Below, piece after piece: positions 3,670 through 45,070 of a stretch of 50,809 nt of DNA. Positions within the stretch are counted from its first letter, which is position 1. Each line of letters starts with the position of its first letter. The DNA lies in sequence record NC_136442.1; one strand, written 5' to 3'. Source of the DNA: a phage. A model generated the notes under the pieces. The model did no database searches. It was not told where the DNA came from and saw only the letters and a program-made list of their open reading frames with translations. A program made the position numbers and the translations under genes.

Positions 3670-6351
3670 ATGGCTGAAAAATACGCTGGCCTAACGCTAG
3701 GCGTTGACGTGTCGCAGGTCAACAATGCTGTTAAATCATTGCAGCAATTCAAGAAGGCAAACGACGACGCAAAAAAAAGCGTTAATGAATTTGTTGATTC
3801 TGAGGTTGTGGCCCGACAGCAAGCAAAACAGCTTGCAGAAGAACTGGCGCGCCAGAAAGCAGAATTTAAGAAAATCCAGGAGTCAATTGATCCCACCGCA
3901 TCAAAGATGGATAAGCTGAGAAAGGCAGCGACACAGCTTGATGCGCTATGGAAAAAGGGCGTTGTTCCTGATCAGACTTTTTTTGAGCTTGGGGCAATTC
4001 TTGAGACGCAGCAAAACAAGCTGATCGCAACCAAAAAAGCGATGACAGAGGAAGGCCGCGCGGCGCTTGAGGAATCAAAGAACAAGGCGCGTGCAGCGGA
4101 AGAGGCTAAAAAATTCGTCCAGGCTTTGCGTGAACAGGAAGAAGCAGCAGGAAAAAGCAAGTCTGAATTGCTGGAAATGAAAGCGGCACAGCTTGGAGTT
4201 AGCCAGGAGGCAGCACCTTACATCGCAAGGATGAAAGAGCAGGAAAAGCAGATCCAGAAACTTGGTATTTCTACAGGCCAATACAAACAAGCAATGCAGC
4301 AATTGCCAATGCAGATCACAGACGTGGTGACTTCACTTGCTTCTGGTATGCCCGTTTGGTTGGTCGCAGTCCAGCAGGGTGGACAGATCAAGGATTCTTT
4401 TGGTGGTGCATCCAATGCTTTAAAAGCGTTGCTATCTTTCCTGAATCCGGTAAACGTGGCGTTTGGTTTGCTTTCCGGCACGCTGGCAATTGCTGCATAT
4501 AATGCCCACAAAGCACAGACAGAGCTTGAGGCAATTAAAAAAACCGTTCAGGAAACAACTGGCTTGAGTGGTGAGTTTGCCGAAAAGATTGCTATAGGAA
4601 TCCAGGAGCTTTCCGACAAGACAGGCGAAAGCGCCGAAGATCTGGCAAAGGCTTACATAACAACGAAAGACGGCGCGAGCGAGGCGATTAAAAAACTGGT
4701 TGACGTTGGAATGACTTATGATGACGCAAAAAAGAAAGTCAACGAGTACAAGGGCGCGTCTAGCTTTGTCAGCTTGAATAACGAAATTGCAAACCACAAA
4801 AACAAAGTCCTTGAGCTGGGCGAGTCGTGGTATGAAGTTTTGAAAGCTAAGCGTGATTACGCTTCCCCGTCCGGCGGCCTGTTAGGTAAAGAGCTTGGAT
4901 ATGTTAATCCTATGCTTAAGTTTGCACTTAACACTTATGAAGACATTGGAAAGGTCGTAAAAGATGCGAATAAGGACATGGCGGAGCGAGCGGAGCGAAT
5001 CGACAAAGAAAACCTGTCATTAAACAGAGTGAGAGCGGCGCAAGAGGCTTTAAACAAAGCCATTGAGGATCAGAAGGGCGTGGCGCGTTCGGCTGATGAA
5101 GAACTGAAAAAGCGCGCGGCTGAAAACGTGGAGTTCAGACGCAAAGAGCTTGAGGAGATCAAGAAGCAGGAGCAGAAAAAGAAAGAGGCTAAAGGGGGAA
5201 TAGTTCGCGGCCCTACTGAGCAGCTTGATAAAGAGTTGTACGTTTTAAAAGCTCAACTGGAAACTCTTAAAGAGCATCGCACTGTTAACGATGTTATTTC
5301 TCGCCAGCGTAAATCTTTATGGAGCATCGAAAAGCAGATCGAGATCCTGGAGAATGCGCAGAGCAAGCGTAAATTGACCGGAGCGGAACAGGCGCTACTA
5401 AGCGAGCAAAAAGCCGTTCTTGAAATGGCAAGACAAAAAGCGGAGCTAGGGGATCAGATTGTTTTGCAGGAGCGCAAAAACAAACTGGAGCAAGATAGTC
5501 TTAAGTTTATCCGTGAAACGGAGGCGGCTATTGATGCGATTGGCCTTAAGCAACTTGGCTACACTGAAAAGCAGATCGAGCGTGAGCTAGAGTTACGCAA
5601 GCTGCGCACCGACTACGAGGCGCAAGGCGGAAGCGTTAGCGACGAAGTTTTTCAGCAAATGGAGACGAAACTTAAGCTGTATTACCAGGCACAAGACGAG
5701 GCGCAAGGCAACTGGTTAGCCGGAGCAAAGAACGCATGGGAGCTATTCGCGGAAGATGCAAACAATGCCTATGGCAATGTTCAGCAGATTGCAAGCGAGG
5801 CGTTAAACGGCCTTACAAACCAATTAGCGAATTTTATCGCTACTGGCAAGGCAAACTTTAAAGACTTCTCGACGGCTATCATCAAAATGATTATTCAGAT
5901 GATCACGAAAATGGTTGTCTTTAATGCGTTATCTGGCCTGATGGGTGGTCAAACCTGGACGATGGGGAGCTTGCTTAAGAATATTGGCGGATTTGCTGGC
6001 GGTGGATACACTGGCGACGGCGGGAAGTATGAGCCAGCCGGAATTGTTCATAAGGGTGAATTTGTCATGACGAAGGAGGCAACGCAGCGTATCGGAGTAG
6101 GCAACTTGTACCGCATGATGCGAGGCTATGCTAACGGCGGCGTTGTTGGTGGTTCCGGCTATACTGGCGGTGGCACTGTCACTGGTGGAGCACCTCAATT
6201 TAACATCGGTGGGATTGATGTTAGCATCAATAACGGCAATGATCCGAAGGGTATCGAAACTGGTGTTAAGATGATCTTTACTGATATGATTAGACGTTCC
6301 TGTATGCAGGGCGGGGAGGTTTACGAATTTGTTATGAGCAAGCGAGGTTGA
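3670..6351 (+). CDS. tail tape measure protein
   Basis: 893 aa, long coiled-coil-rich ORF with glycine-rich C-terminus, directly after G/GT. Confidence 0.85.
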   Translation: MAEKYAGLTLGVDVSQVNNAVKSLQQFKKANDDAKKSVNEFVDSEVVARQQAKQLAEELARQKAEFKKIQESIDPTASKMDKLRKAATQLDALWKKGVVPDQTFFELGAILETQQNKLIATKKAMTEEGRAALEESKNKARAAEEAKKFVQALREQEEAAGKSKSELLEMKAAQLGVSQEAAPYIARMKEQEKQIQKLGISTGQYKQAMQQLPMQITDVVTSLASGMPVWLVAVQQGGQIKDSFGGASNALKALLSFLNPVNVAFGLLSGTLAIAAYNAHKAQTELEAIKKTVQETTGLSGEFAEKIAIGIQELSDKTGESAEDLAKAYITTKDGASEAIKKLVDVGMTYDDAKKKVNEYKGASSFVSLNNEIANHKNKVLELGESWYEVLKAKRDYASPSGGLLGKELGYVNPMLKFALNTYEDIGKVVKDANKDMAERAERIDKENLSLNRVRAAQEALNKAIEDQKGVARSADEELKKRAAENVEFRRKELEEIKKQEQKKKEAKGGIVRGPTEQLDKELYVLKAQLETLKEHRTVNDVISRQRKSLWSIEKQIEILENAQSKRKLTGAEQALLSEQKAVLEMARQKAELGDQIVLQERKNKLEQDSLKFIRETEAAIDAIGLKQLGYTEKQIERELELRKLRTDYEAQGGSVSDEVFQQMETKLKLYYQAQDEAQGNWLAGAKNAWELFAEDANNAYGNVQQIASEALNGLTNQLANFIATGKANFKDFSTAIIKMIIQMITKMVVFNALSGLMGGQTWTMGSLLKNIGGFAGGGYTGDGGKYEPAGIVHKGEFVMTKEATQRIGVGNLYRMMRGYANGGVVGGSGYTGGGTVTGGAPQFNIGGIDVSINNGNDPKGIETGVKMIFTDMIRRSCMQGGEVYEFVMSKRG

Positions 6352-6766: not shown

Positions 6767-7528
6767 ATGGCTAATAAAGAATCAGGTAGAGTTGAATTTG
6801 AGAACTGCCTACAAAGTTTGTACCCAGGAGAAATTATAACGCTTGTAGAGATTGACGGGACGAAGTTCGGGGCAAATATTTACCGATTTCACAATGAGAA
6901 CATTTCTTATACTGCCGAAGAATTAATGCAAGCGCAGCAAACCGGAATCTTGCCGCCGAAAGATATTATTTTTCAGGGTGAGGTTTACGGAGCGCGGCCT
7001 TTCGGTGTGAGCGGGATTAACTTCACAAGTAACGGCAGGGCAGATAAGCCTCAACTTATAGTGTCAAACCTTGACAGCAGGGTTAGCGCCATGATCAGAA
7101 ATTACAATGGCATGATGCAAGCAAAGGTGACTTTCTGGATTACGGCAAAGGAATTTATAGGAGAAGACGGAGCAATCAAAGATGGCGCTTACAGAAAATT
7201 GGTTTATTACATTGAGCGCCCAAGCCAGTATAATAGAGAGGTGGCGAAATTTGATCTGACGTCGCCTTACGATATGGATGGACTGATGATCCCGCCGCGC
7301 ATCACTCAAAGCGTTTGCTATTGGGCGCAAAGGGGGTGGTACAGGAGCGGAAAGGGTTGCTCTTATAACGGATCGGCAATGTTCGATAAAGACAATAAGC
7401 CAGTAACAGATCCATCGCAAGACTATTGCGCAGGAACTGTAACGGCTTGCAAATTGAGATTCGGTCAGCAAAACGAGTTGGATTTCGGCGGTTGCGCGGT
7501 GGCGTCACTGCTACGGAGGAATCAATAA
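6767..7528 (+). CDS. minor tail protein L-like
   Basis: 253 aa, strong RBS AAGGAGG, position after M-like gene. Confidence 0.65.
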   Translation: MANKESGRVEFENCLQSLYPGEIITLVEIDGTKFGANIYRFHNENISYTAEELMQAQQTGILPPKDIIFQGEVYGARPFGVSGINFTSNGRADKPQLIVSNLDSRVSAMIRNYNGMMQAKVTFWITAKEFIGEDGAIKDGAYRKLVYYIERPSQYNREVAKFDLTSPYDMDGLMIPPRITQSVCYWAQRGWYRSGKGCSYNGSAMFDKDNKPVTDPSQDYCAGTVTACKLRFGQQNELDFGGCAVASLLRRNQ

Positions 7529-8259
7529 TGATTAGTGCAAAAATTAAACTTGAAATAATGCAGCACGTTAAAGAGGAATACCCTAAAGAGGCTTGCGGCG
7601 TCATAACTCAAAAGTCACGGGTACAGAAATATCACCGCATAACCAACGTGCATGACGATCCAGAAAATCATTTTGAAATGGACGCCGTAGAATACGCTGA
7701 ATCGCTCGACAAAGGCGAATTAATCGCGGTGGTGCATTCCCATTGCGGGGATGGTGCTAGTACGATACCGAGCGCGCACGACTCATGTATGTGCGATGAA
7801 ATGGGTGTGTCGTGGATTATAGTTTCATGGCCCGAAGGTGATATGAGAATTGTCGAGCCGCAGGAAAGGCCGCTTATCGGTCGCCCGTGGTCGCTGGGGT
7901 CGTTCGATTGCTGGGGTCTTATCATGGCGTGGCATAAACAGCACGGAGTAGTATTGAATGACTTCCGAAAACCTTACGAGTGGTGGAAGTCAGAATATGG
8001 TGAAAATCTTTACCAGGATAATTATTTGAAAGAGGGATTTGTTGAAACTAACGAGCCTCCAAAACCTGGTGATATGGTGATTATGCAACTATCATCGCCA
8101 GTCTGGAATCATGCGGGGATTTATTTGGGTAACAACCAGCTATTACATCATGCGTTTGGAAAGCTATCTCGCATCGACTTGTATTCTGGATGGTATCAGG
8201 AGCACACTGTAAAAATTTGCCGACATAAGGATCTGAAATATGACATTGAAAGTAATTAA
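7528..8259 (+). CDS. tail assembly protein K-like (JAB/MPN plus NlpC/P60-like domains)
   Basis: HSHCGDG motif (JAMM-like) and Cys/His C-terminal domain; start chosen at MISAK with GGAGGA RBS and TAATG overlap. Confidence 0.7.
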   Translation: MISAKIKLEIMQHVKEEYPKEACGVITQKSRVQKYHRITNVHDDPENHFEMDAVEYAESLDKGELIAVVHSHCGDGASTIPSAHDSCMCDEMGVSWIIVSWPEGDMRIVEPQERPLIGRPWSLGSFDCWGLIMAWHKQHGVVLNDFRKPYEWWKSEYGENLYQDNYLKEGFVETNEPPKPGDMVIMQLSSPVWNHAGIYLGNNQLLHHAFGKLSRIDLYSGWYQEHTVKICRHKDLKYDIESN

Positions 8260-39629: not shown

Positions 39630-40010
39630 ATGGTTAACATTCGAAAAATCCGCGTCGGCACTAAATTCTTAGTTACTTACGCAATTCCAGATAGCGGAAT
39701 GAAGAAGGGCCAGATTGTTAAGGTTGATAGCAAAAGGTTCGGAATCCCTGGTATCAATGGATATCTAATCAATAGAGATCTTGGATTCGACGGCTTCGCT
39801 ATCCGTGCGCTTGAGGGCATTGTTGCAACTCTTAAACGAATCACTAATCATCGCGGCTGCCCAATCAAGACGATTAAAGCGCCAGTAAATTACGGCAAAC
39901 TGGATAATCGTCGAATCCGCCGCCTGGCGCGTAACGCGTTAAAATTCCGTGGCGTAGGCGATGATTTCTACTATGGATACAAGAGGATTGCGCGCAATGC
40001 TGGGAAATAA
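39630..40010 (+). CDS. hypothetical protein (126 aa)
   Basis: AGAGGAAA RBS. Confidence 0.6.
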   Translation: MVNIRKIRVGTKFLVTYAIPDSGMKKGQIVKVDSKRFGIPGINGYLINRDLGFDGFAIRALEGIVATLKRITNHRGCPIKTIKAPVNYGKLDNRRIRRLARNALKFRGVGDDFYYGYKRIARNAGK

Positions 40011-40109
40011 CAATAACGCAACGAATCCTAAGCCACCTTTTGATTTTCATTCCGCAATGATTGCGGTATTATCAATGCTACTTTTTCTTTATAGCATGAG
40101 GGCGCTACT

Positions 40110-40358
40110 ATGGTTTTTAACGCATTGAAACGACTGTTTAAGCCGGAATACCGGATCGTATTTTGCCGCGACTGTTCTACTTATCATGTGCAGCGACGCA
40201 GCTTAGGCGGCAATTGGCACTATGTTACAGACGACTTTTTCGGCATCATTGCCACTGAATTTAAGTATTACAGTGATGCTTATATGTACGTCAAGAATCG
40301 CCACCGCTTACGCAAGTGTCGTTTTTCCGTGCTGATTCACGTTAATGATTGTTACTGA
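40110..40358 (+). CDS. hypothetical protein (82 aa, Cys-containing)
   Basis: GAGGG RBS; preceded by a hairpin-plus-TATTAT element without the motif. Confidence 0.5.
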   Translation: MVFNALKRLFKPEYRIVFCRDCSTYHVQRRSLGGNWHYVTDDFFGIIATEFKYYSDAYMYVKNRHRLRKCRFSVLIHVNDCY

Positions 40359-40365
40359 GGTGAAA

Positions 40366-40557
40366 ATGAAAACTGGCATTATTATTCTTTTTCTGATCCT
40401 TTTCGGCAGCTATTTAACCATTAACTATGAGGGCATTATGGCCTTTTGGGGCAACTTGATGATGTTTACCGCTGGTTCGATTGCTGGCTACTCTGACGGG
40501 AAAAAGGATGGCGTTCGCAAGATGCTGATGGGGCTTAAACAAAATAAGGGGATCTGA
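40366..40557 (+). CDS. small membrane protein (63 aa)
   Basis: GAGGTGAAA RBS; two hydrophobic segments. Confidence 0.5.
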   Translation: MKTGIIILFLILFGSYLTINYEGIMAFWGNLMMFTAGSIAGYSDGKKDGVRKMLMGLKQNKGI

Positions 40558-40558
40558 A

Positions 40559-40849
40559 ATGGCAAACAAAACTTACCGCAAACTACTGGTTAACGCTTTT
40601 GAAAATATCGCGCAGTGTAACAAGTGGAACGACTCTAAACACTCGCCAATCACAATGAAGCGCGCCGGATTCAAAAATGCTCGTTCATGGGCGCGAGCTT
40701 TCGCAGCTTGCTATATGCCGGATGGTGGACTAGGAGCGATGAACGAGTTTTTGATCAACATGATAGAGGAAGCTGCGCGAGATGATCGACCGCTGACACA
40801 GCGAGATTTTGATGATTTCGCGCGCGATGAGCTTTACTATCTGAGCTAA
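40559..40849 (+). CDS. hypothetical protein (96 aa)
   Basis: ORF ends at TAA adjacent to next motif. Confidence 0.55.
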   Translation: MANKTYRKLLVNAFENIAQCNKWNDSKHSPITMKRAGFKNARSWARAFAACYMPDGGLGAMNEFLINMIEEAARDDRPLTQRDFDDFARDELYYLS

Positions 40850-40892
40850 TAGCACTTTTTGTTAAAACTTCCGCAAGGGCATTTGGTAAAGT
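40849..40892 (+). promoter_or_regulatory. motif-type promoter cassette (consensus motif, 18 nt, TAAAGT within hairpin AGGGCA...TGCCCT)
   Basis: Read directly. Confidence 0.6.
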
Positions 40893-40924
40893 GCCCTTAT
40901 TGAAGCGAAACAGAGGAAAGCGCA

Positions 40925-41137
40925 ATGAAAATCAAAATCACCAAAATCGACACTATCAACGGCGACGGATCAATCACTCTTGAGCAATGCGGTTTGGTTG
41001 TTGGTGATGTGCTGGAAGTTGACGGACATTTCAGCGACGGATCTTATTGTGTTATTGCGCCGCGTAACAGCGAGTTTATCAAGGCTGGCGACAATATTAG
41101 TGTTAACCATGACGAATGCGAGGTAGTAGAAGAATGA
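40925..41137 (+). CDS. hypothetical protein (70 aa)
   Basis: AGAGGAAAG RBS. Confidence 0.55.
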   Translation: MKIKITKIDTINGDGSITLEQCGLVVGDVLEVDGHFSDGSYCVIAPRNSEFIKAGDNISVNHDECEVVEE

Positions 41138-41397
41138 TCACGATTAACCTGTCAGAGCAGCAAGCGCGCATTATGTTGTCTGCCTTCGGTTGGCGAGACA
41201 ATGACGGTTTACAGGCCACAGTTAAAATTTATGAGCCAGTGGCGCGTGAAGTTTTCAGCCAGCTAGAACACGCATTTGATCCTGCTGGGACTGAGCAAGC
41301 GGAAACTGCCGCATGGTTCGGAGAGAACGGATACAGAGATCAGCAAGTCGAAAACTGGAAGCGCATAAACGAGACTATGGAGGAATCAGGTTTATGA
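41134..41397 (+). CDS. hypothetical protein (87 aa)
   Basis: ATGA coupling; GAGGTAG RBS. Confidence 0.5.
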   Translation: MITINLSEQQARIMLSAFGWRDNDGLQATVKIYEPVAREVFSQLEHAFDPAGTEQAETAAWFGENGYRDQQVENWKRINETMEESGL

Positions 41398-41708
41398 TTT
41401 ACATTCACTACTACCAAATCGGAACTAACGAGAACAAAAAAGAGCATCGTTTCATCCACGATGATTTGGACAAGGCAAAGGCACAGCAACAGGTTTTAGG
41501 CGGCGTCATTCAGGCTTTTGAGCCTGTAGAAGATATTGAGTACCGCGAGCATTTAAAAGATGTTGTTATTGATGAGATCTCTTGCTTGATTGATGATATG
41601 ACAAATCACGGCCCTGGTTCCCCGTGGGAAGACGCAGGATCTGTAACGTGGGACAAGGCCAAAATTAAGACGCTAAACAACTTTCGAGAGATTCTCGACG
41701 GTTTTTAA
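41394..41708 (+). CDS. hypothetical protein (104 aa)
   Basis: GGAGGA RBS; ATGA coupling. Confidence 0.55.
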   Translation: MIYIHYYQIGTNENKKEHRFIHDDLDKAKAQQQVLGGVIQAFEPVEDIEYREHLKDVVIDEISCLIDDMTNHGPGSPWEDAGSVTWDKAKIKTLNNFREILDGF

Positions 41709-41778
41709 TTAAAAACGCATAGCCGTTAGAGCACCTCAATCGCATTCTAACGAGCTATTTTTCTGGTAAGGTGATTTA

Positions 41779-41907
41779 ATGGATGAGTACAAACAACCTT
41801 CGCAGTGGTGCAAAGAGAAGCAAGAAGAGGCACTGGAGCGCGGAGATGTGGAAGAAGCTATGAACTATTTCAAACTTGCGGAAGAATGGAAGGGGAGAGG
41901 GTACTGA
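41779..41907 (+). CDS. hypothetical small protein (42 aa)
   Basis: AAGGTGA RBS; TGATG coupling to next ORF; below ORF-track cutoff. Confidence 0.35.
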   Translation: MDEYKQPSQWCKEKQEEALERGDVEEAMNYFKLAEEWKGRGY

Positions 41908-42137
41908 TGTTCGGCATGAATGAGGCGCAATTCAACGCAGCTAAACGCCAGGCTAAAAAGTGCGGCGAGGCGATGAAAGCGGATGTGGAAAAGCGCGGGA
42001 AGTATGTTGATGAAGTAATGAAGGGCATCATTGCAGAACACTACCAGCCAATCGCGCCAATGTTGACGATCACTCAATTCATTTGGCTGTGTGGTTACTT
42101 GCGCGGACGTTGGGGGAACGCTTTCGACAGGGAATGA
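41907..42137 (+). CDS. hypothetical protein (76 aa)
   Basis: In-frame ATG inside listed ORF 41805..42137, coupled to the upstream mini-ORF. Confidence 0.5.
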   Translation: MFGMNEAQFNAAKRQAKKCGEAMKADVEKRGKYVDEVMKGIIAEHYQPIAPMLTITQFIWLCGYLRGRWGNAFDRE

Positions 42138-42286
42138 TTGACAACTCTTTCCTGATTGGTTAGCATGGCGTCGTTTACATAAGAGCGGCTTAGTCCGAAC
42201 GCGTGACGCGATAGTCACACAACAACGGCGATATGCAGGAGGTTTTTGCAATGCAAAATAATCCGTAAGACGTATCGCCTTTTTTA
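42138..42286 (+). promoter_or_regulatory. candidate structured leader or small RNA: TTGACA-17-TAGCAT promoter, nested hairpins, 5-codon mini-ORF with AGGAGG RBS, hairpin plus T6
   Basis: Elements read directly in a 150-nt non-coding gap. Confidence 0.35.
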
Positions 42287-42299
42287 ATGGAGATTCAAA

Positions 42300-42533
42300 A
42301 TGATCAAATACAAATTAACCGTTTCTTTCCGTGATACCGTTATTCATCCTTTCTACAATAGCTTTGTTAACAGCTTTACAGTAGAAGTTACAGAGGATCA
42401 GCTAGACGGTGACGAAACTTGCATTTCTATTGGAAATGTTGCTTACCCGATTCACAACATTACCAGCATTAAGCGTGAGGTTGTCGCTGATGAATTACAA
42501 AGTGAAGATGACGATCCGGCGAATGGGGCGTAA
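42300..42533 (+). CDS. hypothetical protein (77 aa)
   Basis: GGAG RBS. Confidence 0.55.
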   Translation: MIKYKLTVSFRDTVIHPFYNSFVNSFTVEVTEDQLDGDETCISIGNVAYPIHNITSIKREVVADELQSEDDDPANGA

Positions 42534-42675
42534 TTGCCAATCATGCAAACAGGAATATGAATGCGTAGTTGATGCTCTTGATGAACTGGAAGCGGTAGCA
42601 AAAGCAAAAGAGCAATCGGGCGCTAATCCTGAAACACATCAATTTTCAATTAACCTTGTGAGGACTTTACAATGA
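42523..42675 (+). CDS. hypothetical protein (50 aa, Cys-containing); start uncertain
   Basis: In-frame ATG within listed ORF 42409..42675; ATGA coupling to next gene. Confidence 0.35.
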   Translation: MGRNCQSCKQEYECVVDALDELEAVAKAKEQSGANPETHQFSINLVRTLQ

Positions 42676-42896
42676 TCGCATTATCTTTCTGCATTGGTTT
42701 TATCATGGCTATCATTATCTTTTCCGTTGTCATGCGCTTTGCTTATAAGTTCGTGATCAATAAAGGCTGGTACGCTTCTGCAATCTGGAGCGAAAAACAA
42801 AAGAAATGGCTTGTTCGTGGTCAATACCTGACAATCGGTAGCAAGATCCTTAATTCCATTCGAGCCAAAGATGGGAAAGTAAAATATACAGCTTAA
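42672..42896 (+). CDS. small membrane protein (74 aa)
   Basis: N-terminal hydrophobic helix; followed by terminator. Confidence 0.5.
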   Translation: MIALSFCIGFIMAIIIFSVVMRFAYKFVINKGWYASAIWSEKQKKWLVRGQYLTIGSKILNSIRAKDGKVKYTA

Positions 42897-42902
42897 AAAT
42901 CA

Positions 42903-42927
42903 CCCGCCGCACGGCGGGTTTTTTATT
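42903..42927 (+). terminator. intrinsic terminator closing the rightward early block
   Basis: CCCGCCG-CA-CGGCGGG hairpin plus TTTTTTATT. Confidence 0.8.
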
Positions 42928-42937
42928 GCCCGTTGTT

Positions 42938-42946
42938 TGGTATAAT
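42938..42946 (+). promoter_or_regulatory. extended -10 promoter (TGG TATAAT) upstream of terminase small subunit
   Basis: TGnTATAAT read directly, about 28 nt upstream of the RBS/ATG. Confidence 0.5.
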
Positions 42947-42974
42947 CAGGCATCTAACCAAAGGAGGATTAACA

Positions 42975-43502
42975 ATGGCTAAAAATGTTGAGCCTGCTGT
43001 AAAGGCATTAAATTTCAAAGAGTTATACAATAAAACTTATGGAGATATTGTTACGCTAAACAACCGCCACAAGTACACGCCGGAACAGGTTTTTGATATG
43101 GCGATCCGATATTTCACTTGGGCCGAAGAGAATCACATCCAGGCGGCTGAAACCGCTTCCTTTCAGGGTGACGTGTACGAGAGCAGAGTTTACAAGCCTC
43201 GCGTTTTCACGGTTAACGGATTCAGCTTGTATCTCGGCGTGACTGAGGCCGCCGTAAGCAAATGGCGTAAAGAGCCTGGATTCTGCGATGTGATGGAGTT
43301 TGTTGATAAAGTAATTTACGAGCAAAAATTCCAGCTTGCGGCAAATAACATGATTAATGCTGGGTTTATCGGTAAAGAGATCGGAGTAGAGAAGCCAGCA
43401 ACAGTGAGCGTCGAAGCGAGCGCGGCAGCTAATGCAAGCATTGACGCAGTAACTGCCGATGAGGTGAAAGAGGCTGTTATTGATATTCTGGAGCAACTTT
43501 AA
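42975..43502 (+). CDS. terS: terminase small subunit
   Basis: 175-aa ORF with AAGGAGG RBS directly upstream of the terminase large subunit, ATGA coupled. Confidence 0.65.
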   Translation: MAKNVEPAVKALNFKELYNKTYGDIVTLNNRHKYTPEQVFDMAIRYFTWAEENHIQAAETASFQGDVYESRVYKPRVFTVNGFSLYLGVTEAAVSKWRKEPGFCDVMEFVDKVIYEQKFQLAANNMINAGFIGKEIGVEKPATVSVEASAAANASIDAVTADEVKEAVIDILEQL

Positions 43503-45070
43503 TGATCATATGGGAAGATTTGACGGCGGCGCAAAAGCGAGCCATTAAAGAAATCAGCGAGCATTCATTCGAAAAGATGATCAGAATCTGGTTCCAATTG
43601 TTGCAGGGGCAAAAATTCCAGAGCAACTGGCATTTTAGCTTATTGTGCAGTGAGGTAGAGAAGATCATCAATGGAGAGTCGCAGAATGTGATTTTCAACA
43701 TTACGCCAGGTAGCGGTAAGACTGAGATTTTCTCGATCCACATGTCACCATACGCGTCATTGAAAAGCCGGAAGGTGAGAAACCTTAACCTTTCGTTTAG
43801 TGATGGCCTTGTCCAGCAAAACAGCAACCGGATAAAGGAGATTATTGGTTCTCCTGAGTGGCAAGAGCTATGGCCTGGAAAACTGGCAAAGGCGAGCGCT
43901 AAAGATCTGATAGTCACCGAAGGCGGCAAGGTTAAATTGCAAGTTAACTCACGTTCTATTGGCGGCCAGGTAACAGGTTTGCGTGGCGGCTATATGGACG
44001 ATGGTTTTACTGGTATGCTGGTTCTTGACGATCCAGACAAGCCGGATGATATGCTTTCTAAGGTAAAGCGCGAGGCTATTCACATGCGGTTAAAAAACAC
44101 AGTGCGATCGCGTCGAATGAAAGACACCACGCCAATTGTTATGGTGCAACAGCGACTACACGTTAATGATTCCACCTGGTTCATGCTTAATGGCGGGATG
44201 GGTGGTATTGAGTTTAAAGTCGTGAGCATTCCGGCGCTGGTTACGAAAGAATACCGCGAAACGCTTCCTGATTGGTTGAAGCCTGAATTTGATCGTGATG
44301 TGCTGTCAAGTAAGCCAGTGATGATAGATGGCGTCGCTCATTATTCATTTTGGCCTGCGAAGGAAAGCGCTGAGGAGTTGCTTGCATTGCGCAATGCAGA
44401 TCCTTACACGTTCTCCAGCCAATACCAACAGCAACCAATCGCGCTTGGCGGGAACGTGTTTAAAACAGAGTGGTTCCAGTATTACGGCAGCGGCGAAAAG
44501 TGCGCACTACCAAAACCGGATCGCTTTGAATACACATTTATTACTGGAGATACCGCGCAGAAGGCCGGAGAGCTTAACGACTATTCGGTTTTTTGTTATT
44601 GGGGGATGTATAAGAATCGCGTTTACTTCATTGATGGCATTCGCGGAAAGTGGGAAGCGCCGGATCTTGAATTAAATTTTATTGCCTTCGTTAACCAGTG
44701 CTGGAAGCGCAATAAGGAGTGTGGCAGCTTGCGACGTATCCACATTGAGGATAAGGCCAGCGGCACGGGTTTGATTCAGGGGGCCAAAAAGAAGATCCCG
44801 ATTGATATAAATCCCGTTCAGCGAAGCAATGACAAGGTGACGCGAGCAATGGACGCCGCGCCAGTAATGAGGGCCGGACGTGTGGCGCTGCCAGAAAATC
44901 ACCCAATGCTGCCTGAGATACTGGCAGAGGTTGCAGCATTCACTTTTGATGATTCTCATCCCCATGATGATATTGTCGATAATATAGTTGATGCTGTTAA
45001 CGTCGAAATGAACTTGGCAGATGATCCGGTGGCAAGGATGAAAAAGCTGGCTGGTCTACGCAATAAATAG
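43502..45070 (+). CDS. terL: terminase large subunit
   Basis: ATPase-type motifs (PGSGKT Walker A-like, VLDDPD Walker B-like) and C-terminal acidic nuclease-type region; 522 aa. Confidence 0.8.
   Translation: MIIWEDLTAAQKRAIKEISEHSFEKMIRIWFQLLQGQKFQSNWHFSLLCSEVEKIINGESQNVIFNITPGSGKTEIFSIHMSPYASLKSRKVRNLNLSFSDGLVQQNSNRIKEIIGSPEWQELWPGKLAKASAKDLIVTEGGKVKLQVNSRSIGGQVTGLRGGYMDDGFTGMLVLDDPDKPDDMLSKVKREAIHMRLKNTVRSRRMKDTTPIVMVQQRLHVNDSTWFMLNGGMGGIEFKVVSIPALVTKEYRETLPDWLKPEFDRDVLSSKPVMIDGVAHYSFWPAKESAEELLALRNADPYTFSSQYQQQPIALGGNVFKTEWFQYYGSGEKCALPKPDRFEYTFITGDTAQKAGELNDYSVFCYWGMYKNRVYFIDGIRGKWEAPDLELNFIAFVNQCWKRNKECGSLRRIHIEDKASGTGLIQGAKKKIPIDINPVQRSNDKVTRAMDAAPVMRAGRVALPENHPMLPEILAEVAAFTFDDSHPHDDIVDNIVDAVNVEMNLADDPVARMKKLAGLRNK

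What the first reader, a model, noticed from the sequence alone, without database searches (positions are those of the whole stretch)
42138..42290. Candidate small RNA or leader-peptide attenuator in a non-coding gap
Between two early genes lies a 150-nt stretch with a TTGACA-17-TAGCAT promoter-like element (42138-42166), an internal hairpin GTGACGCGATAGTCAC, a 5-codon mini-ORF (ATG CAA AAT AAT CCG TAA) preceded by a perfect AGGAGG, a nested TTTTGC/GCAAAA hairpin, and a closing stem GGCGATA...TATCGCC followed by TTTTTT (to 42286). This could be a small regulatory RNA or an attenuator controlling read-through into 42300..42533.
Basis: seen in the sequence. Interest (0 to 1): 0.45.

Follow-up and report, generated by a model that had tools for sequence, protein, structure and literature searches.

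The report
Conserved leader RNA in T1-like phages
A promoter, a folded non-coding RNA of about 113 nt and a terminator sit ahead of three small genes in this T1-like coliphage; the RNA fold is conserved across most of the phage family and matches no Rfam family, while the 5-codon mini-ORF inside it is a lineage-specific accident.

Summary
The window is a Warwickvirus-like member of the Drexlerviridae (T1 family).

Comparison with relatives changes the interpretation:
- **Conserved module.** The promoter, a 14-nt 5' leader (CGUnnACAnAAGAG), two hairpins (H1, and H2 = GTGAC...GTCAC) and a last hairpin carrying a CCGUAA motif recur in T1, TLS, Rtp, the Klebsiella Weberviruses, Ec_L1 and others. 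The module occurs once per genome, always a short distance upstream of the terminase genes.
- **RNA structure.** The stems show abundant compensatory changes, and the U·G pairs fit only the + strand. This is a real structured RNA. It has no Rfam match and no covariance-model similarity to HK022 put RNA.
- **Terminator.** In this lineage the last hairpin is lengthened and followed by U6, making an intrinsic terminator. The product would be an RNA of about 113 nt.
- **Mini-ORF.** The AGGAGG, the nested hairpin and the mini-ORF lie in an apical insertion of about 23 nt. The insertion is absent from 16 of 21 related leaders. One 98%-identical phage has ACG in place of the ATG.

The leader-peptide model is therefore rejected. 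The best reading is a cis-acting structured leader/attenuator, possibly nut- or put-like. A trans-acting sRNA remains a live rival. The function has not been tested.

The parts
42138..42166 (+). Sigma-70-type promoter: -35 TTGACA (42138-42143), 17-nt spacer containing the conserved CTGATTGG, -10 TAGCAT (42161-42166). The -35 starts one base after the stop codon of the upstream gene.
   Evidence: 10 of 12 positions, the best site in 40000-44000. TTGAC is present in 17 of 19 phages that were retrieved by homology rather than by pattern. The distance from the -10 to the conserved CGT is constant: 6 nt in relatives, 5 nt here.
42172..42185 (+). Conserved 5' leader CGUUUACAUAAGAG (family consensus CGUnnACAnAAGAG). 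The predicted transcription start lies at about 42172-42174. CGUU (42172-42175) can pair with AACG (42198-42201) to form helix P1.
   Evidence: C1, G2, U3, A6, C7, A10, G12 and A13 are invariant in 32 family-wide sequences. The motif occurs once in the window. P1 is 92% paired but does not vary, so it gives no covariation evidence.
42186..42197 (+). Hairpin H1: CGG(C) / (U)CCG with loop UUAGU. In this phage the fourth pair is a C·U mismatch.
   Evidence: Across the family the stem sequence changes while pairing is kept: CGGC/GCCG, GCGG/CCGC, GCUC/GAGC, GCGC/GCGC, GCCC/GGGU, GCCAC/GUGGC. All 4 pairs show changes on both sides. The loop varies from 3 to 8 nt.
42203..42218 (+).
   Evidence: 100% paired with 4 of 5 pairs compensatory in 21 Tempevirinae leaders. 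4 of 5 pairs are compensatory family-wide. RNAalifold predicts 4 of the 5 pairs independently.
42172..42221 (+). Core of the RNA family (leader + P1 + H1 + H2), as matched by the covariance model R1 built here.
   Evidence: 58.7 bits, E = 9e-12. It is the only significant match in the window; the next best has E = 0.43.
42219..42226 (+). A/C-rich single-stranded linker ACAACAAC. It is partly complementary to the U-tract.
   Evidence: Conserved in Tempevirinae. Inverted repeat I1 is 85% complementary.
42227..42279 (+). Terminator hairpin: a 9-bp basal stem, GGCGAUAUG (42227-42235) paired with CGUAUCGCC (42271-42279). The conserved motif CCGUAAGA (42263-42270) sits on the 3' side of the loop. 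This is the lengthened form of the family's last hairpin.
   Evidence: 97.9% paired, with 6 of 9 pairs compensatory. A U·G pair is present in 15 of 21 sequences, which fits only the + strand. Hairpin energy -21.1 kcal/mol, z = -3.07. Other genera have a short form: a 5-bp stem, a loop ending in CCGUAA, and no U-tract.
42237..42262 (+). Lineage-specific apical insertion holding AGGAGG (42237-42242) and the nested hairpin UUUUGC-AAU-GCAAAA (42244-42258). The mini-ORF (42251-42268) starts inside it and ends in the conserved CCGUAAGA motif.
   Evidence: The insertion is absent in 16 of 21 aligned leaders, where the loop is TTTTTA or similar. Pocis76 and L160 carry different hairpins without an ATG. 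FritzSarasin has ACG in place of ATG.
42280..42285 (+). U6 tract, the predicted 3' end of an RNA of about 113 nt.
   Evidence: A U-rich tract follows the hairpin in 20 of 21 Tempevirinae leaders but not in Pocis76. DNA homology with Hanriverviruses ends at 42284-42288, a mosaic joint.
42289..42302 (+). Shine-Dalgarno GGAG and ATG of the first downstream gene (42300-42533). It can only be reached by read-through of the terminator.

Best explanation
The gap encodes the Warwickvirus version of a structured leader RNA that is conserved across most of the Drexlerviridae (T1 family).

Proposed mechanism:
1. Host sigma-70 RNA polymerase starts at about 42173 from the promoter at 42138-42166.
2. The nascent RNA folds into a conserved core: a 14-nt leader, P1, H1 and H2 (42172-42221).
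3. The RNA then forms a long hairpin carrying the conserved CCGUAAGA motif. In this lineage that hairpin is followed by U6 and acts as an intrinsic terminator.
4. Most transcripts therefore end at about 42285 as a non-coding RNA of about 113 nt.
5. Only polymerases that read through express the three small genes at 42300-42896. The element is thus a promoter-proximal transcription attenuator.
6. I infer that the conserved core is a recognition module that sets the amount of read-through. It would do this by binding a phage or host factor, or the transcribing polymerase itself (nut-like or put-like).

The mini-ORF plays no part.

Shown here: the promoter geometry, the RNA structure, the strand, the terminator anatomy, the distribution across the family, and the non-conservation of the mini-ORF.
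Inferred: that termination is partial and regulated, and what binds the core.
For: **Conservation and context**
- The window is 99% identical to phage atuna. Its relative FritzSarasin is classified as Warwickvirus, Tempevirinae, Drexlerviridae.
- The same module lies downstream of the T1p59 homologue, and upstream of the small genes that precede terS, in T1, TLS/Sazh, Rtp, KP36/KOX1, Ec_L1 and Henu7. Jk06 has a weaker version.
- It occurs once per genome in the window and in T1.

**RNA structure**
- On the structure-agnostic MAFFT alignment of 32 family-wide sequences, 90.8% of cells are paired. The covariation score is 0.565 against 0.188 in shuffles (0 of 500 reach it) and at most 0.105 for slid partners. 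H1 has 4 of 4 compensatory pairs and H2 has 4 of 5.
- In 21 Tempevirinae leaders, H2 is 100% paired and the terminator stem 97.9% paired, with 6 of 9 pairs compensatory.
- RNAalifold finds both helices on its own.
- The U·G and G·U pairs would be A·C mismatches on the other strand, so the RNA is the + strand.

**Leader position**
- The core starts at the predicted +1 in every genus, at a fixed distance from the -10.
- The last hairpin always lies just upstream of the first ribosome-binding site, or of an inserted tRNA gene.

**Attenuator**
- The hairpin has 9 bp followed by U6, with z = -3.07.
- There is no room for another promoter before 42300.
- U-rich tracts also follow the leader hairpin in Henuseptimavirus and in part of Webervirus.

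**Independence from the downstream gene**
- Near-identical leaders precede different first genes in vojen and JakobBernoulli.
- DNA homology stops at the U-tract.
Against: - There are no transcript data; the library holds no transcriptome for this phage group.
- In T1, TLS, Ec_L1 and others the last hairpin has no U-tract, so attenuation is not the family-wide function of the RNA.
- No alternative antiterminator pairing is statistically supported. The H2 loop GCGAUA is perfectly complementary to the terminator 3' strand here, but across relatives the pairing is no better than shuffles (81.7% against 79.8%).
- No candidate binding protein was identified. The neighbouring genes match only families of unknown function.
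- terS has its own extended -10 promoter just after the next terminator. The late genes therefore do not obviously depend on read-through from this unit.
- The promoter, 5' conserved single strand and U-tailed terminator equally fit a trans-acting sRNA.
Confidence: 0.4

Rival explanations
1. It is a trans-acting small RNA gene. The terminated RNA of about 113 nt is the functional product. It would base-pair with host or phage mRNAs through its conserved single-stranded 5' region, or sponge a protein, probably with the help of Hfq or ProQ. Read-through into the downstream genes would be incidental.
For: - It has its own conserved promoter and a strong U6-tailed intrinsic terminator.
- It has an invariant 5' single-stranded stretch, as in 5'-seed sRNAs.
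- It has an AAC-AAC linker next to the terminator.
- The same RNA sits in front of different genes, with a recombination joint at the U-tract.
- In Rtp, L184, L182 and Jk06 the RNA is followed by a tRNA gene. RNase P processing there would release it as a discrete RNA.
Against: - In most genera (T1, TLS, Ec_L1, many Weberviruses) no U-tailed terminator follows, and the RNA runs straight into an mRNA.
- Part of the 5' 'seed' (CGU) is predicted to be paired in P1.
- No complementary site beyond chance was found in the phage genome (5 matches, 4.4 expected).
- Host targets could not be searched with these tools.
Confidence: 0.25
2. It is a processive antitermination element of the put or nut kind. 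The folded core stays bound to the polymerase that made it, alone or with a phage factor, and makes that polymerase resistant to terminators. The affected terminators would be the leader terminator, the one at 42902 and the many others in the late region.
For: - Like HK022 putL, it starts at the first bases of a sigma-70 transcript and consists of two stem-loops with conserved internal-loop bases.
- It lies at the head of a co-directional region rich in strong intrinsic terminators, at 42902, 45098, 48819, 259, 2900, 3629, 6708, 8843 and 12343. T1 carries 11 annotated terminators between 8322 and 29628.
- The TLS re-annotation found only three intergenic sigma-70 promoters.
- H2 combines a semi-conserved loop with a freely covarying stem, the signature of a protein-binding hairpin such as boxB.
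Against: - The covariance model of the core does not match HK022 putL or putR, even at E = 10 with filters off.
- No boxA-like sequence lies on the + strand.
- No -10-like pause element is conserved in the early transcribed region (read by eye from the sequences).
- terS has its own conserved extended -10 promoter directly after the 42902 terminator: TGGTATAAT here, TGGTAAAAT in T1, TGATATACT in KP36. Antitermination is therefore not required to explain late expression.
- There is only one copy per genome.
Confidence: 0.15
3. It is a structural 5' UTR with no switching function. The hairpins would protect the mRNA or tRNA precursor from RNases, or tune translation of the first gene. The terminator would be a leaky insulator that also ends the upstream early operon.
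For: - The element always spans exactly from +1 to the first ribosome-binding site.
- The last hairpin sits a fixed 9-10 nt before the SD (…AACCAUUCAGGAG) in many genera.
- There is no terminator between the upstream gene and this hairpin.
Against: - The 5' end is a conserved 14-nt stretch and not a protective terminal hairpin.
- Invariant internal-loop and loop nucleotides (ACAnAAGAG, CCGUAA, the H2 loop) across genera that are only 31-47% identical in the adjacent protein point to specific recognition and not to generic stability.
- The first downstream gene is not conserved.
Confidence: 0.15
4. It is a leader-peptide (ribosome-mediated) attenuator. Translation of MQNNP from the AGGAGG-ATG inside the terminator hairpin would melt the 3' strand and allow read-through.
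For: - AGGAGG lies 8 nt upstream of the ATG.
- The stop codon at 42266-42268 lies 2 nt before the terminator 3' strand, so a terminating ribosome would cover that strand (inference).
- JLBYU41 keeps a similar ORF, MQYNP.
Against: - The insertion carrying the SD and ATG is absent in 16 of 21 Tempevirinae leaders and in all other genera.
- The ATG is ACG in FritzSarasin.
- Pocis76 and L160 have unrelated apical hairpins without an ATG.
- Part of the SD (GGA) and the ATG are base-paired in the predicted fold.
- Only 34 nt separate the ATG from the end of the U-tract.
Confidence: 0.03

Closest known systems
HK022 put RNAs (putL, putR): cis-acting, factor-independent antiterminator RNAs
   Same: - A structured RNA made of two stem-loops with conserved bulges.
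- It begins at the first nucleotides of a sigma-70 phage transcript, as putL does, and lies upstream of terminators.
- There is a superficial 5' resemblance, AUAGACGAACGG in putL against GUAGACAGACGAGG in T1.
   Different: - There is no detectable homology: model R1 does not hit putL or putR at E up to 10.
- The core is about 50 nt against about 70 nt for put.
- There is one copy per genome and not two.
- No antitermination activity has been shown.
- The host phages are virulent siphoviruses and not lambdoid.
Lambda PR'-6S RNA-tR' leader (Q-dependent late antitermination)
   Same: A strong host-type promoter is followed by a short terminated non-coding transcript in front of further co-directional phage genes that lead to the packaging genes.
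   Different: - Conservation here is in RNA helices (covariation), whereas lambda relies on DNA sites.
- No conserved -10-like pause element or Q-binding-site equivalent was recognised.
- No Q-family protein was found among the ten neighbouring ORFs scanned.
- Three small genes, another terminator and a separate promoter lie between this leader and terS.
Lambda-type nut sites (boxA plus boxB hairpin bound by N)
   Same: A conserved linear sequence is followed by a hairpin whose stem covaries while the loop is semi-conserved (H2), and it lies near a promoter.
   Different: No boxA consensus is present on the + strand, no N-like protein was identified, and the loops are not GNRA-like pentaloops.
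Enterobacterial Hfq-dependent sRNAs with a 5' seed (for example RybB or OmrA/B; named from my own knowledge)
   Same: Own promoter, a conserved 5' single-stranded region, internal hairpins and a Rho-independent terminator with a U6 tail. The size is about 110 nt.
   Different: The terminator and U-tail are missing in most genera of the family, where the RNA is a 5' UTR. No targets are known.
Leader-peptide attenuators (trp, his, pyrBI)
   Same: A short ORF lies close to a terminator in a 5' leader.
   Different: The ORF is not conserved. It sits inside the terminator loop and not upstream of competing 1:2 / 2:3 / 3:4 structures. It has no meaningful regulatory codons and no related biosynthetic genes downstream.
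Type III toxin-antitoxin loci (ToxIN): promoter, antitoxin RNA, terminator, then the protein gene
   Same: The order is the same: promoter, structured non-coding RNA, leaky terminator, protein gene(s).
   Different: There are no tandem repeats. The downstream proteins are 61-77 aa and match no toxin family.

Membership tests
Intrinsic (Rho-independent) terminator | A stable G+C-rich stem immediately followed by a run of U | tested here: met
   A 9-bp stem at 42227-42235 / 42271-42279 is followed directly by U6 at 42280-42285. Hairpin energy is -21.1 kcal/mol, z = -3.07. The stem covaries. The simple scanner missed it because the 'loop' is 35 nt with nested helices.
Sigma-70 promoter | -35 and -10 hexamers with a 16-18-nt spacer, conserved in position among relatives | tested here: met
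   TTGACA-17-TAGCAT. TTGAC is present in 17 of 19 homology-retrieved relatives. The -10-like hexamer sits at a fixed distance from the conserved RNA start, often with an extended TGn. Promoter activity was not tested.
Leader-peptide transcription attenuator | A leader ORF with SD and start codon conserved among relatives | tested here: not met
   The insertion is absent in 16 of 21 Tempevirinae leaders and in all other genera. The ATG is ACG in FritzSarasin.
Leader-peptide transcription attenuator | Mutually exclusive antiterminator and terminator helices whose choice depends on ribosome position | tested here: not met
   The ORF lies inside the terminator loop. The only candidate competing pairing, the H2 loop with the terminator 3' strand, is not supported across relatives.
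HK022 put RNA | Sequence and structure homology to putL or putR | tested here: not met
   Model R1, searched with filters off on the HK022 immunity region (L315), gave no hit at putL (about 4240-4310, minus strand) or putR (about 5460-5530) with E up to 10.
HK022 put RNA | A promoter-proximal two-stem-loop RNA acting in cis | tested here: inconclusive
   The position at +1 and the two covarying hairpins are met. Action in cis was not tested.
HK022 put RNA | Factor-independent suppression of downstream terminators through the beta' zinc-binding domain | not testable with these tools
   This needs in vitro transcription or rpoC mutants.
Lambda Q / PR' late leader | A sigma-dependent pause element (-10-like) in the initially transcribed region, and a Q gene nearby | tested here: not met
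   By eye, positions +1 to +14 vary at the key -10 positions (TTTACA, TAGACA, TGAACA). There is no Q-family Pfam hit in ten flanking ORFs. The rest of the genome was not scanned.
Known Rfam families (riboswitches, ribozymes, sRNAs) | A match to a curated covariance model | tested here: not met
   No family reached the gathering score in the whole window. At E up to 10, the only matches in the gap or in the T1 copy were chance snoRNA hits.
Hfq-type trans-acting sRNA | A discrete transcript with its own promoter and a U-tailed terminator | tested here: inconclusive
   The anatomy is met in this phage. It is not conserved in T1, TLS or Ec_L1. There are no transcript data.
Hfq-type trans-acting sRNA | A conserved seed with complementary targets | tested here: inconclusive
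   The 5' region is conserved. There is no excess of complementary sites in the phage genome. The host genome could not be searched for short matches.
Type III TA antitoxin RNA | Tandem direct repeats of the RNA unit | tested here: not met
   No tandem repeats in 42000-42400.

The most novel reading that the evidence does not exclude
The conserved core (leader-P1-H1-H2) could be an RNA-based processive antitermination device shared by most of the T1 family. It would work either alone, like put, or loaded by a small phage protein, like nut. Polymerases started at this one promoter would then run through the many intrinsic terminators of the packaging and morphogenesis region, which would time late gene expression in a classical phage whose late regulation has never been explained. 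It would be the first such element in a virulent phage family, and it is unrelated in sequence to put.
Probability: 0.15. Interest if true: 0.8.

Novelty: new variant of a known kind. Interest (0 to 1): 0.55.

Why it matters
T1 and its relatives, which include the BASEL collection phages and the Klebsiella Weberviruses considered for therapy, are among the most isolated coliphages. Their transcriptional programme is nevertheless almost unknown.

This is a structured RNA that occurs once per genome and is conserved across most genera examined. It has clear covariation, sits at the first bases of a conserved host-type promoter, matches no Rfam family and is unannotated in the GenBank records inspected. 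In two of them a hypothetical CDS is annotated over it.

That makes it a concrete and genetically tractable handle on how these phages regulate the genes that precede packaging. If it is an antitermination or attenuation RNA, it adds a new family to a very short list (put, nut, EAR). If it is a trans-acting sRNA, it would be a conserved phage sRNA in a virulent family.

The case also shows that a perfect SD with a mini-ORF inside a hairpin can be an evolutionary accident.

Tried and rejected
- **Leader peptide:** rejected by comparison with relatives.
- **Known RNA family:** Rfam at gathering score and at E up to 10, on the window and on T1, gave nothing. There is no tRNA or tmRNA.
- **put homology:** I located HK022 PL/putL and putR, but model R1 does not match them.
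- **Pseudoknot or antiterminator pairing** between the H2 loop GCGAUA and the terminator 3' strand UAUCGC: perfect in the window but not better than shuffles across 21 relatives. I leave it open.
- **Second copies** in the genome, which would be expected for put- or nut-like pairs: none in the window or in T1.
- **In-phage targets** for the 5' region: not above chance.
- **Bacterial chromosomal copies:** a genome-contig scan with CGTAGACANAAGAGGC returned only chance matches (23 bits or less, against 33-69 bits for real copies).
- **Type III TA-like repeats:** none.
- **Function of neighbouring genes:** Pfam and PHROGs gave only unknown-function families (DUF7299, DUF7180, phrog_303, phrog_2919, phrog_5976) and terS.
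- **Unspecific pattern:** the IMG/VR scan with GCCGAACGNGTNNCGCG returned too many hits to be useful and was not examined.
- **Non-Drexlerviridae IMG/VR contigs** with a perfect promoter followed by CGTAAACAAAAGAG score only 14-16 bits with R1 and are probably an effect of pattern selection.
- **Literature:** I found no transcriptome, TSS map or sRNA report for Drexlerviridae. The TLS re-annotation does not appear to list this promoter: TTGACG occurs only once in its supplement, in a different promoter, though I did not read the full table.
Full report
**What is there**

The window is a complete, circularly permuted genome of a T1-like siphovirus. It is 99% identical to Escherichia phage atuna. 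Its relative FritzSarasin is classified as Warwickvirus, Tempevirinae, Drexlerviridae.

The finding lies in a 162-nt gap. Upstream is a 76-aa gene (41907-42137), a homologue of T1 gp59 that occurs in 834 phage records. Downstream is a 77-aa gene (42300-42533). Two further small genes follow. Then come a strong terminator at 42902-42925 and the terminase genes at 42933 and 43502.

- TTGACA 42138-42143, a 17-nt spacer and TAGCAT 42161-42166, the best sigma-70-like site of the neighbourhood;
- hairpin GTGAC-GCGATA-GTCAC at 42203-42218;
- AGGAGG at 42237-42242;
- mini-ORF at 42251-42268;
- nested hairpin at 42244-42258;
- a 9-bp closing stem at 42227-42235 / 42271-42279, followed by T6 at 42280-42285.

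Energy statistics alone are modest. The whole RNA has z = -1.94, the core z = -0.71 and the terminator hairpin z = -3.07. Promoter-like hexamers are as common as in shuffled sequence. The question therefore had to be settled by comparison with relatives.

**Comparison within Tempevirinae**

The gap is conserved at the DNA level in 130 phage records. In Hanriverviruses the similarity stops at 42284-42288, exactly at the end of the T-tract.

I aligned 21 distinct leaders from Warwickvirus, Hanrivervirus, Henuseptimavirus, Hafnia phage Pocis76, BabyEgg and IMG/VR contigs (alignment A2). Pair counts on it show:
- The hairpin at 42203-42218 (H2) is paired in 100% of cells, and 4 of its 5 pairs change on both sides (GUGAC/GUCAC, GUGGC/GCCAC, GUAGC/GCUAC, GCCAG/CUGGC).
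- The closing stem is 97.9% paired, with 6 of 9 compensatory pairs.
- One pair is U·G in 15 sequences and C-G in 6. That is tolerable only if the + strand is the RNA.
- Slid-partner controls collapse to 26-48% pairing.

RNAalifold independently predicts most of H2 (4 of its 5 pairs) and the whole closing stem; 10 of its 13 pairs have compensatory changes.

**The mini-ORF is an accident of one lineage**

In the same alignment, the AGGAGG, the TTTTGC/GCAAAA hairpin and the ATG all fall in an apical insertion (GCAGG-[AGGTTTTTGCAATGCAAAATAAT]-CCGTAAG). In aalborv, vojen, egaa, JakobBernoulli and others the corresponding loop is TTTTTA.

- 16 of the 21 leaders lack the insertion.
- Pocis76 and contig L160 have unrelated 5-bp apical hairpins at the same place, without an ATG.
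- FritzSarasin, 98% identical to the window, reads AACG where the window reads AATG.
- Only JLBYU41 keeps a comparable ORF (MQYNP).
- In the predicted fold the GGA of the SD and the start codon are base-paired.
- The ATG is 34 nt from the end of the T-tract.

The leader-peptide reading is therefore not supported.

**The element is found across most of the family**

I followed the gp59 homologue into distant genera and scanned IMG/VR with a promoter-plus-leader pattern. The same module appears in T1 itself (7588-7755, between genes 58 and 57), TLS/Sazh, Rtp, the Klebsiella Weberviruses (KP36, KOX1), Ec_L1 and Henu7, and in a degenerate form in Jk06. Pantoea phage AAS23 keeps only the 3' part (the last hairpin); its core is not detected by R1.

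The module consists of, in order:
- TTGAC, then 9-10 nt, then CTGAyyGG and a -10-like hexamer, often with an extended TGn;
- 6 nt, then CGUnnACAnAAGAG;
- a 3-5-bp G+C-rich hairpin H1 whose loop varies from 3 to 8 nt;
- AAnG(n);
- a 5-bp hairpin H2 with the semi-conserved loop (G/A)CG(A/G)(U/A)(A/U).

The 5' CGU can pair with the ACG that follows H1. This helix (P1) is invariant, so it is uninformative.

H1 occurs as CGGC/GCCG, GCGG/CCGC, GCUC/GAGC, GCGC/GCGC, GCCC/GGGU and GCCAC/GUGGC.

On a structure-agnostic MAFFT alignment of 32 family-wide sequences (A3), 90.8% of cells pair. The covariation score is 0.565, against 0.188 in shuffles (0 of 500) and at most 0.105 for slid partners. All four H1 pairs and four of five H2 pairs change on both sides. 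The model-fitted alignment of 79 matches agrees.

A covariance model of this core (R1) finds exactly one copy in the window (42172-42221, 58.7 bits, E = 9e-12) and one copy in T1.

**The last hairpin**

Downstream of the core, most genera have further hairpins. They end with a 5-bp stem whose loop ends in CCGUAA, followed by AACCAUUCAGGAG and the start codon, with no U-tract. The stem covaries: GCGGG/CCCGC, GGGGG/CCCCC, GAGGG/CCCUC, GUGGG/CCCAC, GCCGG/CCGGC, GCCGC/GCGGC.

In Warwick-, Hanriver- and Henuseptimaviruses the same motif (CCGUAAGA) sits on the 3' side of a lengthened 9-bp hairpin that is followed by a U-tract. The window's terminator is thus a lineage-specific elaboration of a conserved hairpin.

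In part of Webervirus, H2 itself is followed by UUUUAUU.

In Rtp, L184, L182 and Jk06 a tRNA gene (Arg-TCT, Ser-GCT or Arg-CCT) is inserted right after the last hairpin.

**What it is not**

- No Rfam family matches the window's copy or T1's copy.
- HK022 putL and putR were located in the HK022 immunity region. They share position (+1 of a sigma-70 transcript) and a two-stem-loop layout with this element, but R1 does not detect them even at E = 10.
- There are no tandem repeats, so it is not a type III antitoxin.
- No bacterial chromosomal copies turned up in a capped scan.
- The neighbouring proteins have no known function.
- Of the eight GenBank records whose annotation I inspected for this group, none annotates the RNA. 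Two place a hypothetical CDS over it (bas07_0089 and egaa_61).
- The TLS re-annotation reports only three intergenic sigma-70 promoters. This one does not appear among them, judging from a term search of its supplement and not from a full reading.
- I found no transcriptome for the group.

**How it most likely works**

Shown:
- a conserved host-type promoter;
- a + strand RNA whose conserved part begins at the predicted start;
- two covarying hairpins with invariant unpaired bases;
- in this phage, a canonical intrinsic terminator 14 nt before the next gene.

Inferred: most transcripts end at about 42285 as an RNA of about 113 nt, and expression of 42300-42896 depends on read-through. The element would then be a promoter-proximal attenuator, with the conserved core as the recognition module.

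Near-identical leaders precede different first genes in vojen and JakobBernoulli, and a recombination joint lies at the U-tract. Both argue that the RNA serves the transcription unit and not one particular gene.

A nut- or put-like action on the polymerase is attractive because the co-directional late region is studded with strong terminators. That argument is weakened by a conserved extended -10 promoter immediately after the 42902 terminator, in front of terS: TGGTATAAT here, TGGTAAAAT in T1 and TGATATACT in KP36.

A trans-acting sRNA is the main rival. The window's version has its own promoter, a conserved 5' single strand, an AAC-AAC linker and a U6-tailed terminator. However, the terminator is absent in most genera, and no target sites above chance exist in the phage genome.

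The H2 loop GCGAUA is identical to part of the terminator 5' strand and could compete for the 3' strand. Across relatives this pairing is no better than chance.

**Verdict**

The real finding is larger than the one reported: a previously undescribed structured leader RNA, present once per genome and conserved in most genera of the T1 family examined, of unknown function.

My confidence that it is a genuine conserved structured RNA made from its own promoter is high, about 0.85. My confidence in the specific cis-attenuator mechanism is about 0.4.

Noticed in passing
window 42902-42946: A strong bidirectional terminator (ACCCGCCG-CACG-GCGGGT followed by T6) is followed directly by an extended -10 promoter, TGGTATAAT (42938-42946), in front of terS. 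The same terminator-then-TGn-promoter arrangement precedes terS in T1 (TGGTAAAAT) and KP36 (TGATATACT).
   Followed up: partly
window 41907-42137: The upstream 76-aa gene (T1 gp59 family, phrog_303; 834 phage records) is homologous to ORF4 of lambdoid phage mEp021. That GenBank record describes ORF4 as encoding peptides toxic to E. coli, including 'Ipe', an inducer of pleiotropic effects.
   Followed up: no
L023 1295-1371; L184 1198-1275; L182 1233-1320; L022 1403-1478: In Rtp, Jk06 and two IMG/VR relatives a tRNA gene (Arg-TCT, Arg-TCT, Ser-GCT, Arg-CCT) is inserted immediately after the last hairpin of the leader RNA. The same promoter and leader therefore drive a tRNA.
   Followed up: partly
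L006 646-753 (JakobBernoulli bas07_0089); L005 696-998 (egaa_61): GenBank records annotate a 35-aa 'hypothetical protein', or a 5'-extended CDS, over the structured RNA. Given the covariation pattern, these are probably mis-annotations.
   Followed up: no
(records MG065641-MG065681): Twenty records named 'Campylobacter phage' with host C. jejuni carry this Drexlerviridae coliphage-type region at 77-83% identity. The host assignment looks doubtful for a T1-like enterobacterial phage group.
   Followed up: no
L034 about 6841-6933 (also L105, L111); L043 1837-1908 (also L126, L139): Unrelated IMG/VR contigs carry a perfect TTGACA-17-TATAAT promoter followed 5 nt later by CGTAAACAAAAGAG and a G+C-rich hairpin. 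They score only 14-16 bits with R1. This may be an effect of pattern selection or a more widespread start-of-transcript motif.
   Followed up: partly
window 42208-42213 and 42228-42233: The H2 loop GCGATA is repeated exactly in the 5' strand of the terminator stem, 20 nt downstream. Both copies are complementary to TATCGC at 42273-42278. Conservation of this three-way relation is inconclusive.
   Followed up: yes
window 42490-42675: A 61-aa CxxC-containing protein (phrog_2919, T1 gp56 family) overlaps the end of gene 42300-42533 by 44 nt in another frame. In the genera examined it is conserved within the few genes downstream of the leader, directly after it in some, which makes it a candidate partner of the RNA.
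   Followed up: no
window 42138-42166 and relatives: The promoter spacer contains a conserved CTGAyyGG just upstream of the -10 in nearly all genera. It is shifted 7 nt in Rtp. Only part of it is explained by an extended -10 TGn, so it may be a protein-binding site.
   Followed up: no
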